The notes under the pieces: model-generated
The model's input: the letters and a program-made list of their open reading frames with translations, nothing else
What the model was told of the DNA's origin: nothing
Databases searched by the model: none
Shown: in pieces, positions 14,984 through 20,630 of the stretch
Layout of the letters: each line of letters starts with the position of its first letter
Position numbering within the stretch: position 1 is the stretch's first letter
Made by a program: the position numbers and the translations under genes
DNA from: the human T2T-CHM13v2.0 reference genome, Homo sapiens
DNA length: 64,000 bases
NCBI RefSeq assembly: GCF_009914755.1
Contig: NC_060947.1
Direction: 5' to 3' (one strand)

Positions 14984-16515
14984 GAGAGGGAAATGTCAAC
15001 TGTGCTGGTGGGATTAGACACGCCTGCAGTGAAGAAGCAGAAGCTGAGCAGTGACGAGACCAGCAACCCTCACCTCTCTGGAGAGGAGAATGATGATGCT
15101 GTCAGTAGAAAGTGGTACAATCACTGAACACCCTGATATACCTACAAACATGCCAAATGCACCTGGAAGGCAAAGTTGGGGAAAGGGAAAATGGAAGTCA
15201 AAGAAATGCAAATGTGCTTTCAAATGTGTAAATAGTCTCAAGGAACATCATAACCAACCACTGTTTGGAGTTCAATTTAATTAGCACAGTAAAGAAGAAG
15301 ATCCATTACTGTTTGCAACTGTAGGAAGCAACAGAGTTACCTTGTATGAATGTCATTGACAAGGAGAAATTCGGTTGTTGCAATCTTGTGTGGACGCTGA
15401 TGCTGACGAAACTTTTACACTTGTGCATGGACCTATGATAGCAATAGAAGCATAATTGGGATGATTAATCCCACAACAACGCAGTGTAAAAAGCACTATA
15501 TTGGCCACGGAAATGCTATCAATGAGCTGAAATTCCACCTTAGAGATCCAAATCTACTCCTATCAGTAAGTAAAGATCATGCTTTATGATTATGGAATAA
15601 TGGACACACTGGTGGCAATATTTGGAAGCATAGAAGGGCACAGAGTTGAAGTTCTAAGCGCTGGTTGTGATCTTTTGCGTGAAAAAATAATGTCCTGTGG
15701 TATGGATCACTCAAACTTTGGTGGATCAATTCAAAGAGAATGATGAATTCAATTAGGAAATCTTATGATTATAACCCAAGTAAAACTTACAGGCCATTTA
15801 ATTCTCAGAAAATCCATTTTCTGATTTTTCTATCAGAGACATACACAGGAATTATGTTGATCGTCTGTGATGGTTAGGTGATTTGATACTTTCTAAGTCT
15901 TGTGAAAATGCAGTTGTGTTGGAAACCTGGCAAAACGGAAGGTGATATAGATACAATTCAACCTGGTGACTCTAATGTGACTATTCTTAGGTGATTTGAT
16001 TGTAGCCAGTGTGATATTTGGTACATGAGATTTTCTATGAATTTCTGGCAAAAGATGCTTACATTGGGCAATCAAGTTGGAAAACTTTATGTTTGAAATT
16101 CAGAAGTTTAAGATCCTCATAAAGCCAAATGTACAACACTAACTCATCGTAAATGTGATGCTGCTATTCAACAAACCAGTTTTAGCAGGGATAGCAGCAT
16201 TCTTATAGTTGTTTGTGATGATGCCAGTATTTGGCTCTGGGTTTGACTTTGATAAAACACTTTCACCTAATCAAAATTAGAGTGTATTGTCTGTATAAAA
16301 TAGAATTCATGTAGTTTGCTAGTAAGGGCACATAGAGCATTTAGAGTTGTCTTTCGGCATTCAATCAGGTTGAGCTGAATGTAGTGATGTTTACACCGTT
16401 TACATTCTTTGTACTGTCTTCCTGCTCAGATTCTACTGCTTTCTAATAAAAATTTGTTTTTGTAAAGCTGTGTGTTGCTTTTGTTATTTTCATTGTGATG
16501 GAAAAAAGTTGAAAG
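14984..16515 (+). pseudogene. EED (pseudogene): Processed pseudogene of EED (PRC2 WD40 subunit)
   Basis: Intronless and colinear with [106 protein letters not shown]; equivalent stop TAA 16253-16255; 3'UTR with AATAAA 16445-16450; several frameshifts and stops; start ATG missing. Confidence 0.95.
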
Positions 16516-19500
16516 TGTCACTATAAAGCAACCACACAAACAAGCCAACATCATAACCAGCTAACAACAAAATGACAAAATCAAATCCACACATATCAAT
16601 ACTAACCTTGAATGTAAATGAAATAAATGCCTCACTTAGAAGGAACAGACTGGCAAGCTGGATTAAAAACAAACAAACAAACACAAGACCCAATGCTATG
16701 CTATCTTCAAAAGACCTATTTCACATGTAATGACACCCAGGGGCTCAAAATGAAGGAATGGAGGAAAATCTACCTAGCAAATGGAAAACAGAAAAAGGCA
16801 GGGATAGCAATCTTAATTTCAGACAAAACAGACTTCAAACCAACAAAGATCAAAGAGGGGCATTACATAATGGTAAAGGTTTCAATTCAACACAAAGACG
16901 TAACTATCTTAAAAATATATTATATATGCACCCAACACATGAGTACCCAGATTTATAAAGCAAGTTCTTAGAGATGTACAAAGAAACATAGACTCCCACT
17001 CAATAATAATGGGAGACTTCAACACTCCAGTGACAGTATTAGATCATTCAGGCAAAAAAATTAACAAAGATATTCAGGACCTGAACTCAACCTTGGACCA
17101 AGTGAATCTGATAGACCTCTACAGAACTCTCCACCCCAAAACAACAGAATATACATTCTTCTCATCACCACATGGCACATACTCTAAAATTAACCACATA
17201 ATTTGACATAAAACAATTCTCAGCAAATGCAAAAGAACTGAAATAATACCAAATACATGCTCGGACCATGGTACAATAAAAATAGAAGTCAAGACTAAGA
17301 AAATCACTCAAAACCATACAATTACATGGAAATTAAACAACATGGTTCTCAAGGACTTTTGGGTAAATAATGAAATTAAGGCAGAAATCAAGAAGTTCTT
17401 TGAAACTAATGAGAACAAAGAGACAATGTGCCAGAATCTCTGGGGTGCAGCAAAACCAGTGTTAAAAAGGAAATTTTTAGCACTAAATACCCACATCAAA
17501 AAGCCATTAGAAAAACCCCAAATTAACAACCTAACATCACAACTAAAAGAACTATAGAACCAAGAGCAAACCCCAAAGCCAGCAGAAGACAAGAAATAAC
17601 CAAGATCAGAGTGGAACTGAAGGAGATAGAGACACAAAAAAACCTTCAAAAAATCACCGAATCGAGGAGTTGCTTTTTTCTGGAAAAAAAAAAAAAGAAT
17701 TAAAATATATAGACCACTAACTAGACTAATAAAGAAGAAAAGAGAGAAGAATCAAATAGACATAATTAGAAATGATAAGGAGGATATCATCACTGACCCC
17801 ACAGAAATACAAACAACCATCAGAGAATACTATAAACAACTCTATGCACGTACACTAGAAAATCTAGAAAAAAAGGATAGATTCCTGGGCACATACATGC
17901 TCCCTAGACTGAACCAAGAAGAATTGAATGCCTGAATAGATCAATAATGAGTTCTGAAATTGAGGCAGTAATAAATAGTTTACCAACCAAAAAAAGCCCA
18001 GGACCAAATGGATTTACAGCTGAATTCTACCAGTGGTACAAAGAAGATCTGGTACAATTCCTACAGAAACTATTACAAAAAACTAAGGAGGAGTGACTCT
18101 TCCCTAACTTATTCTATGAGGCCAGCATCATCCTGATACCAAAACCTGGCGGAGACACAACGGAAAAACAAAACTCCAATATCCCTGATGAACATCAATG
18201 CAAAATGCTCAACAAAACACTTGCAAACTGCATCAAGCCACATATCAAAAAGCTAATCTACTGTGATCAAGTAGGCTTCATACCAGGGATGCAAGTTTGG
18301 TTCAATATATGCAAATCAATAAATGTGATTCATCACATAAACAGAACTAAAAGCAAAAACCACAAGACAAAGCTTTCGATAAAATTCAACATTCCTTCAT
18401 GTTAAAAACTCTCAACAAACTAGGTCTTAAAGGAATATACCTCAAAATAATAAGAACCATCTGTGATAAACCCACAGTCAACAGCATATTGAATGGGCTG
18501 GAAGCATTCCCCTTGAAAATAGGCACAAGACAAGGATGCCCTCTCTCACCACTCGTACTCAACATAGTATTGGAAGTCTTAGCCAGAGCAATCAGGCAAG
18601 AGAAAGACGTAAAGTGCACCCAAATAGGAAGAGAGGAAGTAAAAGTATCTTTGTTTGCAGATGACATGATTCTACATCTAGAAAATCCCATAGTCCTAGC
18701 TCAAAGTCTCCTTCAGCTGATAAACAACTTCAGCAGTTTCAGAATACAAAACAATGTGCAAAAATCACTAGCATTTCTGTACACTAACAACAGCCAAGCT
18801 GAGAGCCAAATCAGAAAGGCAATCAATCTCATTCACAATTGCCACAAAAGAATAAAATACCTAGGAATACAGCTAACCAGGGAGGTGAAATATCTCTACA
18901 ATCAGAAGTACAAGACACTGCTCAAAGAAATCAGAGAAGACACAAACAAATGGAAAAACATTCCATGCTCATGTATAGAATGAATTAATATCATTAAAAT
19001 GGCCATACTGCCCAAAGCAAATTACAGATTCAATGCTATTCCTATAAAACTACCAATGACATTCTTCACAGAACTAGAAAAAAAACTATTGTAAAATTCA
19101 TATGGAACCAAAAAAGAGCCCTAATAGCCAAGGCAGTCCTAAGCAAAAATAACAAAGCTGGAGGCATCAAGTTATCCAACCTCAAACTATACCGCAGAGC
19201 TACAGTAACCAAAACAGCATAGTACTGGTATAAAAACATGCACTTAGACCAAGGGAACAGAATAGAGAGCCCAGAAATAAGGTGACACATATATGACCAT
19301 CTGATTTTTGACAAAGCTGACAAAAACAAGCAATGGGGAAAATACTCCCCATTCAATAAATGGTGCTGGGATAACTGGCTAACCATATGCAGAAGATTGA
19401 AACTGAGCCCTTTCCTTACACCATATACAAAAATCAACTCAAGATGGATTAAAGACTTAAACATAAAGGCCAAGTTTATAAAAACCTTGGAAGACAACCT

Positions 19501-20630
19501 AGGCAATACCATCCTGGACAGAGGAATGGGCAAAGATTTTTTGACAAAGATACCGAAAGCAATTATGACAAAAGCAAAAACTGACAGATGGGATCTAATT
19601 AAGCTAAAGAGCTTCTACACAGCAAGAAACTATCAACAGTGTAAACAGACAACCTACAGAATGGGAGAAAATATTGGCAAACCATGCATGTGACAAAGGT
19701 CTAATATCCAGTATCCATGAGGGGCTTAGAATAATTTACAAGAGAAAATCAAAAAAACAGCCTCATTAAAAATTGGGCAAAGGACATGAACAGACACTTT
19801 CATAAAGAAGACATACATAGGAAAAACAAGCACATGCAAAAAGCTCAATATCACTGATCATTAGAGAAATTCAAATCAAAACCAAAATGAGATAGCAACT
19901 CACACCAGTCAGAACGGCTATTATTATAAAATCAAAAAATAACAGATGCTGGCAATGTTGCAGAGAATAGGGAACACTTACACACTGTTAGTGGGAGTAT
20001 AAATTAGTTTCACCATTGTGGAAAGCAGTATGGCAATGTCTCAAAGAGCTAAAAACAGGACTACCATTTGACCCAGCAGTCTCATTACTGGGTATATACC
20101 CAGAAGAATACAAATCATTCTACCATAAAGATGCATGCACACGAATGTTCATTACAGCACTATTTACAACAACAAAGACATGGAATCAACCTGAATGTCA
20201 TGAATGACAGACTGGATAGAGAAACTGTGGTACATATATACCATGGAATACTATGCAGCCATGAAAAAGAATGAGATCATGTCTTTTGTGGGAATGTGGA
20301 TGGATCTGGAGGCTATTATCCTTAGCAAACTAACACAGGAACAGAAAACCAAATACCCCCATGTTCTGACTTATAAGTGGGAGCTAAATGATGACAACTT
20401 ATGAACACAAAGAAGAGAACAACAGACACTGGGGTCTATTTGAGGGTGGAGGGTGGAAGGGGGGACAGGTTCAGAAAAGATAACTATTGAGTACTGGGTT
20501 AATACCTGGGTGATGAAATAATCTGTACAACAAATCCCCATGACACAAGTTTACCTATGTAATAAATCTTTACATCTACCCCCACACCTAAAAGTTTTAA
20601 AAAGAAAGGAAGAAAAATAAATAAATAAAA
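16516..20630 (+). mobile_element. 5'-truncated L1PA (L1PA13-16-like): inter-ORF region, whole decayed ORF2, 3'UTR and A-tail
   Basis: ORF2 start 'atgacaaaatcaaatccacacatatcaatactaaccttgaatgtaaat'; [21 protein letters not shown] motifs; 3'UTR 'acctgggtgatgaaataatctgtacaacaaatcccc'. Confidence 0.92.

What the first reader, a model, noticed from the sequence alone, without database searches (positions are those of the whole stretch)
14984..20630. EED retrocopy fused to a 4-kb L1PA without a poly(A) tail: candidate mRNA-L1 chimeric retrotransposition
Seen: the host L1MA breaks at 14983 and resumes at ~20631. Between lie the spliced EED copy and, in the same orientation, an L1PA starting just upstream of ORF2. 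There is no poly(A) tract and no evident TSD at the ~16515 junction, and only one A-tail at the far end. Established: L1 machinery makes 5'-cellular RNA/3'-L1 chimeras (U6-L1 is the classic case). Inference: a single ~5.6-kb event by template switch or RNA ligation involving a nearly complete PRC2-subunit mRNA. The alternative is a later L1 insertion into the retrocopy's 3' end.
Basis: partly seen in the sequence, partly recalled or inferred. Interest (0 to 1): 0.7.

Follow-up and report, generated by a model that had tools for sequence, protein, structure and literature searches.

The report
EED retrocopy fused to truncated L1
A dead, intron-less copy of the EED gene on the human X chromosome is joined base-to-base to a truncated L1 element, most likely because both RNAs were copied into the genome in one event, which is a rare but already described by-product of L1 activity.

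Summary
An older L1 is split once, with no base lost. It ends at 14983 and resumes at 20637. The gap holds a fully spliced, 5'-truncated EED copy (14984-16516), a 5'-truncated L1 in the same orientation (16517-20596, starting 55 nt before the ORF2 ATG), and one A-rich tail (20597-20636).

The EED/L1 junction is clean. Homology to the chr11 parent stops at 16516, directly before the parent's distal AATAAA. L1 homology starts at 16514-16517. The two overlap in a 3-nt AGT, and there is no untemplated A.

No second TSD and no leftover EED 3'UTR follow the tail. Its match to either is no better than in 29 unrelated L1 tails.

Divergences agree: EED against parent K2P 0.092, L1 private branch 0.088-0.110. 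No related sense L1 lies within 30 kb downstream of EED. Canonical GT-AG splicing misses the junction by one base.

Best reading (about 0.6): one chimeric TPRT event, by RT template switch or prior RNA ligation. Main rival (about 0.25): a later L1 insertion into the retrocopy's tail with a small target deletion. Only primate orthologues can separate them, and none were available.

It is a new member of a known kind, of modest interest.

The parts
14500..14983 (+). Left part of the older host L1 (ORF2 3' region), ending ...CAAACAACCAAAAA
   Evidence: 73% identity over 491 columns to the inner L1's ORF2, ending at inner position 3539. 39 non-self genome matches at 86-89% for 14684-14983.
14979..14983 (+). 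A5 run at the host/EED boundary. It is the only candidate for the left TSD copy. The inferred ancestral target is CT/AAAAA.
   Evidence: Read directly. 4 of 4 host relatives read ACTAAAAAT(A/T)GAG across the break.
14984..16516 (+). EED processed copy (annotated EEDP1): all 12 exon pieces, 11 introns removed, starting at codon 3 of the CDS. Six frameshifting indels and one in-frame 33-nt deletion lie in the CDS part.
   Evidence: (131 substitutions in 1528 sites; K2P 0.092).
16256..16516 (+). EED 3'UTR-derived part. It contains the proximal AATAAA at 16445-16450 and stops directly before the position of the parent's distal AATAAA.
   Evidence: alignment ends at window 16516 = L002:1887; the parent continues AATAAAATTATGCC.
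16514..16516 (+). AGT shared by the EED 3'UTR (AAAAGT) and L1 (CCAGT): the junction microhomology.
   Evidence: 17 of 29 L1 relatives have AGT at -3..-1, and the chance of 3 nt or more of ambiguity is 0.057.
16517..20596 (+). 5'-truncated primate L1 (4080 nt): 55 nt of inter-ORF spacer, a degenerate ORF2 and the 3'UTR.
   Evidence: 79-83% to 39 copies; 84-86% to 39 copies; homology ends at 20592-20600; RVT_1 E = 4e-18; Exo_endo_phos E = 4e-4, below cut-off; longest open stretch 210 aa.
18351..18980 (+). Reverse-transcriptase domain remnant of ORF2
   Evidence: Pfam RVT_1, 66.2 bits, E = 4.4e-18.
20597..20636 (+). Single A-rich tail, TTAAAAAGAAAGGAAGAAAAATAAATAAATAAAATAAAAA. Its last A5 (20632-20636) may be the right TSD copy.
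   Evidence: No better match to a candidate TSD or to EED 3'UTR than in 29 unrelated L1 tails.
20637..21100 (+). Right part of the host L1, resuming TTGAGCTACCACATGATCC
   Evidence: 71% identity over 332 columns to the inner L1 from its position 3534. Relatives.

Best explanation
One L1-mediated, target-primed reverse transcription event produced the whole 5.65-kb insert.

- Nick (inferred): the L1 endonuclease nicked an older L1 at a CT/AAAAA site.
- L1 copying (the product is shown): reverse transcription started on the poly(A) of an L1 RNA and copied 4080 nt, up to a point 55 nt upstream of ORF2.
- Switch to EED (inferred): the nascent cDNA then continued on a fully spliced EED mRNA. It entered at an internal 3'UTR position just 5' of the distal AAUAAA, helped by 3 nt of pairing (AGU). 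An alternative with the same outcome is that an EED RNA fragment ending there had already been ligated to an L1 RNA fragment, and the ligated RNA was copied.
- End of copying: synthesis ran to codon 3 of the EED CDS, and the cDNA was joined to the upstream host end.

The product is non-functional. The EED frame is broken six times and ORF2 is degenerate.
For: - EED and L1 are in the same orientation and abut without any untemplated base. EED homology ends at 16516 and L1 homology starts at 16514-16518 in 26 of 29 relatives. They share AGT, where chance gives 3 nt or more of ambiguity in 5.7% of random joins.
- The EED part lacks its poly(A) signal and its tail. It therefore cannot be an ordinary finished retrocopy that was simply left intact.
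- Only one A-rich tail and one host break exist, with no host base lost.
- After the tail there is no copy of the sequence upstream of the junction and no remaining EED 3'UTR. The window's tail ranks 25th, 16th and 9th of 30 against 29 unrelated L1 tails. The only exact match is the 8-mer AATAAAAT, which unrelated tails also contain.
- Ages agree. EED against the spliced parent gives K2P 0.092 over 1528 sites. The L1 private branch is 0.110 for 16517-18500 (26 relatives) and 0.088 for 18501-20596 (10 relatives), which is typical of its relatives (medians 0.099 and 0.083).
- mRNA/LINE chimeras of this architecture are a described class (PMC2104539 Background; PMC13174262 sections 10 and 13).
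Against: - The flanking duplication is at most a 5-7 nt A-run that merges with the tail. The classic proof, a clear TSD around both parts, is absent.
- The 5' part is not a full-length RNA copy ending at its natural 3' end, unlike typical U6/L1 chimeras. This requires an internal acceptor site or a 3'-trimmed or cleaved EED RNA.
- Equal divergence cannot exclude a second insertion within a few million years. The resolution is about +/-0.01 in K2P, and both estimates carry upward biases.
- 3-nt microhomology is also typical of the 5' junctions of ordinary truncated L1 insertions (recalled, not tested here).
- At 40 nt the tail is among the longer ones of the 30 compared (by eye). A fused double tail would also look like this.
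- No orthologous locus could be examined.
Confidence: 0.6

Rival explanations
1. Two events. An ordinary EED processed pseudogene, with its poly(A) tail, inserted into the old L1. Soon afterwards an L1 was nicked into that tail in the same orientation. Its 5' end was joined upstream by microhomology, which deleted the last 20 nt or more of the EED 3'UTR and the upstream part of the tail (an L1 insertion-mediated deletion, with no TSD).
For: - Poly(A) tails are good endonuclease targets in exactly this orientation (established knowledge, recalled).
- L1 insertions with target deletions exist. A review's passages report 50 such events found in human plus chimpanzee comparisons (PMC3543922).
- 3-nt microhomology fits such 5' joins.
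- The 40-nt tail with interspersed G and T could be two fused tails.
- The L1 is not older than the EED part.
Against: - It needs two rare things at one spot: a hit in a tail of about 30 nt, and a deletion-type integration. By the same review's figures that type is about 50 events against 1,835 human-specific L1 insertions, so roughly 1-3% (the ratio is my inference).
- The L1 shows no sign of being younger than the EED part: 0.088-0.110 against 0.092.
- The version with a normal TSD is rejected.
Confidence: 0.25
2. A true EED-L1 fusion transcript was retrotransposed as one RNA. Either an L1 had inserted into the 3'UTR of an ancestral EED allele that was later lost, so EED transcripts ended at the L1's poly(A) signal, or EED RNA was cis- or trans-spliced to an L1 RNA.
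For: - The junction lies 15-16 nt downstream of the start of an A-run in the EED 3'UTR (GAAAAAAAGTTAAAAGT). That is the spacing of an L1 TSD.
- A GT (AAA|GTAATA in the parent) and an AG (CCAG|TGTC in L1) both lie at the junction.
- Law & Burns favour splicing or lost source alleles for their 17 mRNA/L1 chimeras (PMC13174262 sections 13 and 20).
Against: - The present EED locus has an uninterrupted 3'UTR.
- There is no related sense-strand L1 in the 30 kb downstream or 10 kb upstream. The only hits are 3 antisense fragments of 68-72% identity.
- Joining the GT donor to the AG acceptor would give GAAA-TGTCAC, one G short of the observed GAAAGTGTCAC.
- The junction is inside the terminal exon after all 11 introns were removed, and no polypyrimidine tract precedes the L1 AG.
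- It requires an allele that has since vanished.
Confidence: 0.08
3. Two independent neighbouring insertions were fused later by a DNA deletion (end joining on AGT). The deletion removed the EED 3' end, its tail and the 5' part of the L1.
For: The 3-nt microhomology fits end joining.
Against: - It needs three events.
- No host sequence lies between the parts, and none is missing outside them. The L1 would therefore still have had to land inside the retrocopy's tail.
Confidence: 0.05

Closest known systems
Bipartite chimeric retrogenes (cellular RNA 5' part fused to a 5'-truncated LINE; Buzdin, Gogvadze and co-workers). Known here from the Background of PMC2104539; the 2003 human survey, PMC169886, is not held.
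   Same: Two transcripts are joined directly in the same orientation. The 3' part is a 5'-truncated L1 carrying the only A tail, and the whole sits in one target site. Messenger RNAs are named among the 5' partners.
   Different: The 5' part here is not a full-length RNA copy. It is truncated at both ends, and at the 3' end it stops before the poly(A) signal. The flanking direct repeat is at most 5-7 nt of A, not a clear repeat of 10-20 nt.
U6/L1 chimeras (RT template switch, or RtcB ligation before TPRT; as summarised in PMC13174262 section 10)
   Same: Sense-sense junction to a 5'-truncated L1 with no poly(A) between the parts. The same two candidate mechanisms apply.
   Different: U6 is a 106-nt Pol III RNA, usually full-length, with a defined 3' end chemistry. 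Here the partner is a 1.53-kb spliced Pol II mRNA entered at an internal 3'UTR site.
mRNA/lncRNA-L1 chimeras of Law & Burns 2026 (17 loci; PMC13174262 section 13)
   Same: A gene transcript lies 5' of an L1 in sense orientation, proposed to have arrived in a single event.
   Different: Those mostly carry the first one to three exons ending at a splice donor, fused to near full-length L1 (over 5 kb). Here all 12 exons are present, the junction is in the terminal 3'UTR and does not fit GT-AG, and the L1 is truncated to 4.1 kb. Their pipeline accepted only 5' segments of 25-1000 bp, so this 1533-bp case could not be listed. 'EED' occurs 0 times in the 6 supplementary files held.
L1 insertion-mediated deletion at a pre-existing poly(A) tail
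   Same: It would yield the same structure: no TSD, microhomology at the L1 5' end, and loss of target sequence.
   Different: It is a two-step history. It predicts species with the EED copy alone, and an L1 younger than or equal in age to the EED part.

Membership tests
Bipartite chimeric retrogene (features as listed in PMC2104539 Background) | (i) The 5' part is a full-length copy of a cellular RNA | tested here: not met
   The copy starts at codon 3 of the CDS, with no 5'UTR. It ends at L002:1887, before the distal AATAAA.
Bipartite chimeric retrogene | (ii) The 3' part is a 5'-truncated copy, mostly of a LINE | tested here: met
   L1 homology starts 55 nt upstream of the ORF2 ATG and runs to the L1 3' end.
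Bipartite chimeric retrogene | [quoted passage not shown] | tested here: met
   Both parts are on the + strand. Homologies abut or overlap by AGT, with no filler and no A-tract.
Bipartite chimeric retrogene | (v) The chimera is flanked by short direct repeats (TSD) | tested here: inconclusive
   Only a 5-7 nt A-run is duplicated, and it cannot be told from the tail. No host base is lost.
Bipartite chimeric retrogene / TiMEstamp criterion (PMC13174262) | Both parts arrive together in the species alignment | not testable with these tools
   No primate genomes or multi-species alignments are available here.
Bipartite chimeric retrogene | Both parts are of the same age by divergence | tested here: met
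   EED K2P 0.092 against L1 private branch 0.088-0.110. The resolution is about 0.01.
Ordinary processed pseudogene | Introns removed | tested here: met
   12 exon pieces are contiguous, and 11 GT-AG introns of the parent are absent.
Ordinary processed pseudogene | Poly(A) tail directly after the mRNA's 3' end | tested here: not met
   The EED part stops before the distal AATAAA and is followed at once by L1 sequence.
Independent nested L1 insertion with its own TSD | A duplicate of the sequence upstream of the L1 5' end is found after the L1 tail, followed by the rest of the interrupted element | tested here: not met
   The tail's match to the 25 nt upstream of the junction ranks 25th of 30. 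Its match to the parental continuation ranks 16th of 30. The host L1 resumes directly.
Spliced mRNA/L1 chimera (Law & Burns type) | Junction at a splice donor of the gene and/or a splice acceptor in L1 | tested here: not met
   The junction lies in the terminal exon. The nearest GT and AG would give a product one base shorter than observed.
RNA-ligation chimera (U6/L1 type) | The 5' partner ends in a 2',3'-cyclic phosphate and is joined to a 5'-OH L1 fragment before reverse transcription | not testable with these tools
   RNA end chemistry leaves no trace in the DNA. Both break points would follow AGU, which is only suggestive.

The most novel reading that the evidence does not exclude
A single L1 retrotransposition event captured a fully spliced, 12-exon protein-coding mRNA at an internal 3'UTR site, upstream of its poly(A) signal, and fused it to 4.1 kb of L1. 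If so, L1 reverse transcriptase (or an RNA ligase acting on decay intermediates) can recruit long mRNAs without using their poly(A) tails. Chimeras of this size would then sit unrecognised in annotation as 'pseudogene next to an L1', outside the 25-1000-bp limit of the 2026 catalogue.
Probability: 0.6. Interest if true: 0.4.

Novelty: new member of a known kind. Interest (0 to 1): 0.3.

Why it matters
The locus has no sign of function, since both parts are broken. Its value is as a clean, datable example of RNA-RNA recombination by the L1 machinery.

- It involves a long, fully processed mRNA joined at an internal site. That bears on whether such chimeras arise by template switching, RNA ligation or splicing.
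- The one genome-wide catalogue read here (PMC13174262) listed only 17 mRNA/lncRNA cases and excluded 5' segments over 1 kb. Long examples such as this one suggest the class is under-counted.
- A targeted search for poly(A)-less retrocopies abutting sense L1s would probably find more.

It does not open a new question.

Tried and rejected
1. Ordinary nested L1 insertion with its own TSD and leftover EED 3'UTR: rejected.
2. Read-through or cis-splicing from the present EED locus: the 30 kb downstream and 10 kb upstream hold only 3 antisense L1 fragments of 68-72% identity.
3. Canonical GT-AG splicing at the junction: off by one base.
4. EED retrocopy inserted at the 5' edge of a pre-existing L1: rejected by reasoning. 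That history needs an EED poly(A) at the junction and a TSD inside the L1, and neither is present.
5. RNA structure as a pause site.
   - Four L1 relatives folded around the junction gave z-scores of -0.55, +0.83, -1.74 and -1.55. The EED 3' end gave -0.76.
   - A weak GACACU/AGUGUC stem appeared in 2 of 4 minimum-energy folds. Nothing was significant.
6. Naming the L1 subfamily: not possible without a repeat library. I built no consensus and used pairwise and three-point distances instead.
7. Published mention of the locus.
   - 'EEDP1' gave 4 papers, of which 3 were listed. Two of the three have EEPD1 in the title, so I take the term there to be a misspelling (listing only).
   - 'EED pseudogene', 'EED retrocopy', 'EED retrogene' and 'EED processed pseudogene' gave 0 papers.
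   - 'EED' occurs 0 times in the 6 held supplements of PMC13174262.
   - Number strings for an hg38 position, which I estimated from a recalled SOX3 coordinate, gave 0 hits.
9. The 2003 human survey of chimeric retrogenes (PMC169886) is not held. Whether it lists this locus is unknown.
10. Dating the host L1 by the same method failed.
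Full report
**What is there**

The window is T2T-CHM13 chrX:138694001-138758000, and the assembly can be searched.

Reading 14700-16900 and 20300-21000 shows an L1 ORF2-like sequence that stops at 14983 (...CAAACAACCAAAAA). It is followed at 14984 by GAGAGGGAA, which is codon 3 onward of EED.

A search of the assembly with 14984-16516 gave 15 matches: the locus itself, 12 pieces on contig 11 in ascending order, and 2 pieces on contig 4.

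- The 12 contig-11 pieces are the EED exons.
- Each of the 11 parental introns is bounded by AG...GT and is absent from the window.
- The joined parental exons translate into an uninterrupted EED protein.
- A translated piece of the window hits Polycomb protein EED in the PDB at E = 4e-32.

The copy is dead. It has 8 deletions (2, 1, 33, 5, 4, 1, 2 and 4 nt) and 2 insertions relative to the parent. Six of the indels shift the frame within the CDS. The longest open stretch in an EED frame is 78 aa.

**The junction**

Homology to the parental last exon (354 of 392 columns identical) ends exactly at window 16516, which corresponds to L002:1887 (...AAAAGT). The parent continues AATAAAATTATGCCTTATC.

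- The copy therefore runs 66 nt past the proximal AATAAA (16445-16450) and stops directly before a distal AATAAA.
- Neither that signal nor any tail follows.

A search with 16517-17116 gave 39 other L1 copies at 79-83% identity (40 scored of 8608 candidates).

- For the 29 copies fetched, homology to the window begins at 16514-16518 in 26. It begins at 16522, 16524 and 16529 in the other three, and never further upstream.
- These copies read ...ACACAGACCAGT|GTCACTATAAAGCAACC, and the window reads ...GTTGAAAGT|GTCACTATAAAGCAACC.
- The two parts are thus joined base to base and share AGT. 17 of 29 relatives have AGT at that place.
- Random EED/L1 joins show 3 nt or more of ambiguity in 5.7% of 200,000 trials.

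The ORF2 ATG is at 16572, 55 nt into the L1 part. The RT domain is recognisable (RVT_1, E = 4e-18). The endonuclease match is weak and below cut-off.

**The 3' end and the host**

With 19900-20600 as query, 39 other copies (40 scored of 14092) match at 84-86%, up to window 20592-20600. The family ends ...CCTAAAAGTT or ...CCTAAAATAAAAGTT followed by A's. The L1 body therefore ends at 20596, and a 40-nt A-rich tail follows (20597-20636).

The host resumes with TTGAGCTACCACATGATCC at 20637.

- Mapped onto the inner L1's own ORF2, the left host flank ends at position 3539 and the right flank starts at 3534.
- Four of four fetched relatives of the host read ...AACTAAAAAT(A/T)GAGCTACC across the break.
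- No host base is missing. The ancestral target was CT/AAAAA (inferred), and the only possible target-site duplication is a 5-7 nt A-run that cannot be told from the tail.

**Tests of a separate, later L1 insertion**

An independent insertion into the retrocopy's 3'UTR should leave three things after the L1 tail: a duplicate of the sequence upstream of 16516, the rest of the EED 3'UTR (AATAAAATTATGCCTTATC...), and a tail.

- The best local match of the parental continuation to 20561-20720 is the 8-mer AATAAAAT. By eye, the tails of three unrelated L1 copies (L052, L053, L061) also contain it.
- I scored the window's tail against the tails of 29 unrelated L1 copies. It ranks 25th of 30 for the 25 nt upstream of the junction, 16th of 30 for the parental continuation, and 9th of 30 for both together.

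This version is rejected. A later L1 insertion into the retrocopy's poly(A) tail cannot be rejected if it was accompanied by deletion of the upstream part of the tail and the last 20 nt or more of the 3'UTR.

- Such insertion-mediated deletions are real but uncommon. A review's passages give 50 events in human-chimpanzee comparisons and 1,835 human-specific L1 insertions (PMC3543922).
- The resulting 1-3% figure is my inference.

**Ages**

- EED copy against spliced parent: 131 substitutions in 1528 aligned sites. K2P is 0.092 overall and 0.079 at non-CpG sites. The transversion distance is 0.024.
- L1 part: I built no consensus. I estimated the copy's private branch from pairwise distances, as the mean of (d(X,i) + d(X,j) - d(i,j))/2.
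  - 16517-18500, with 26 of 29 relatives kept (3 dropped for coverage or length): K2P 0.110, transversions 0.040.
  - 18501-20596, with 10 of 29 kept (19 dropped, mostly copies too 5'-truncated): K2P 0.088, transversions 0.030.
  - The relatives' own medians are 0.099 and 0.083.
  - FastTree terminal branches are larger (0.149 and 0.112) but again close to the relatives' medians (0.125 and 0.103).
- Both estimates are biased upward. The EED figure includes change in the parent, and the L1 figure includes differences among source elements.
- Within about 0.01 the two parts are equally old, and the L1 is not younger.
- At the 0.17% per million years used in PMC13174262, this is about 54-58 million years. 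At a faster 0.22% per million years (recalled), it is about 42-45.

**Other origins**

- A fusion transcript from the present EED locus is unsupported. The 30 kb downstream and 10 kb upstream contain only three antisense L1 fragments of 68-72% identity, and the parental 3'UTR is uninterrupted.
- A GT in the parent (AAA|GTAATA) and an AG in L1 (CCAG|TGTC) lie at the junction. Joining them would give GAAATGTCAC, one G short of the observed GAAAGTGTCAC. The site is also inside the terminal exon.
- A lost ancestral EED allele with an L1 in its 3'UTR cannot be excluded. The junction lies 15-16 nt after the start of an A-run, which is a TSD-like spacing.
- RNA folds around the L1 and EED break points are not more stable than shuffles.

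**Comparison with what is known**

The architecture matches the bipartite chimeric retrogenes. These are defined in the Background of PMC2104539 by direct, same-orientation fusion of a cellular RNA copy to a 5'-truncated LINE, with mRNAs named among the partners.

It departs from that definition in two respects. The 5' part is truncated at both ends, and no clear direct repeat flanks the whole.

It also differs from the 17 mRNA/lncRNA-L1 chimeras of Law & Burns (sections 10, 13 and 20, and Methods part 1, read).

- Those mostly join the first exons, ending at a splice donor, to near full-length L1.
- Their pipeline took only 5' segments of 25-1000 bp, so this 1533-bp case could not appear.
- 'EED' occurs 0 times in the 6 supplementary files held.
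- Searches for EEDP1 and for EED pseudogene or retrocopy terms found no description of the locus.
- The 2003 human survey is not held.

**Verdict**

A single chimeric retrotransposition event is the best explanation, at about 0.6. Within that, I favour a template switch over prior RNA ligation because of the AGT overlap, but the sequence cannot separate the two.

A sequential insertion with a target deletion stands at about 0.25, a fusion transcript at about 0.08, and a later deletion at about 0.05.

It is a new member of a known kind, non-functional, and of modest interest.

Noticed in passing
L003 about 1115-1900 (G000:C4:85900411-85901190): A second EED-derived copy. Exons 1-4 are spliced, then the copy runs 103 nt straight into parental intron 4 (91% identity to L041:701-869) and ends at an A-rich stretch. 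It looks like a retrocopy of an EED transcript terminated inside intron 4. An Alu with a duplication of about 20 nt interrupts it.
   Followed up: partly
window 15447 (approximate): A 33-nt in-frame deletion in the EED copy removes the codons for HPLLAVAGSRG of the parental protein. It is the largest of the 10 indels.
   Followed up: no
L020, L015, L025, L024 around the L1 position equivalent to window 16517: A weak 5-6 bp stem (GACACU ... AGUGUC) has its 3' arm on the L1 break point. It appears in 2 of 4 minimum-energy folds, and the z-scores are not significant.
   Followed up: partly
window 14684-14983: The host L1's best genome matches (86-89%) look more similar than those of the younger inner L1 (79-86%). 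I take this to be an effect of the short 300-nt query and best-hit selection.
   Followed up: no
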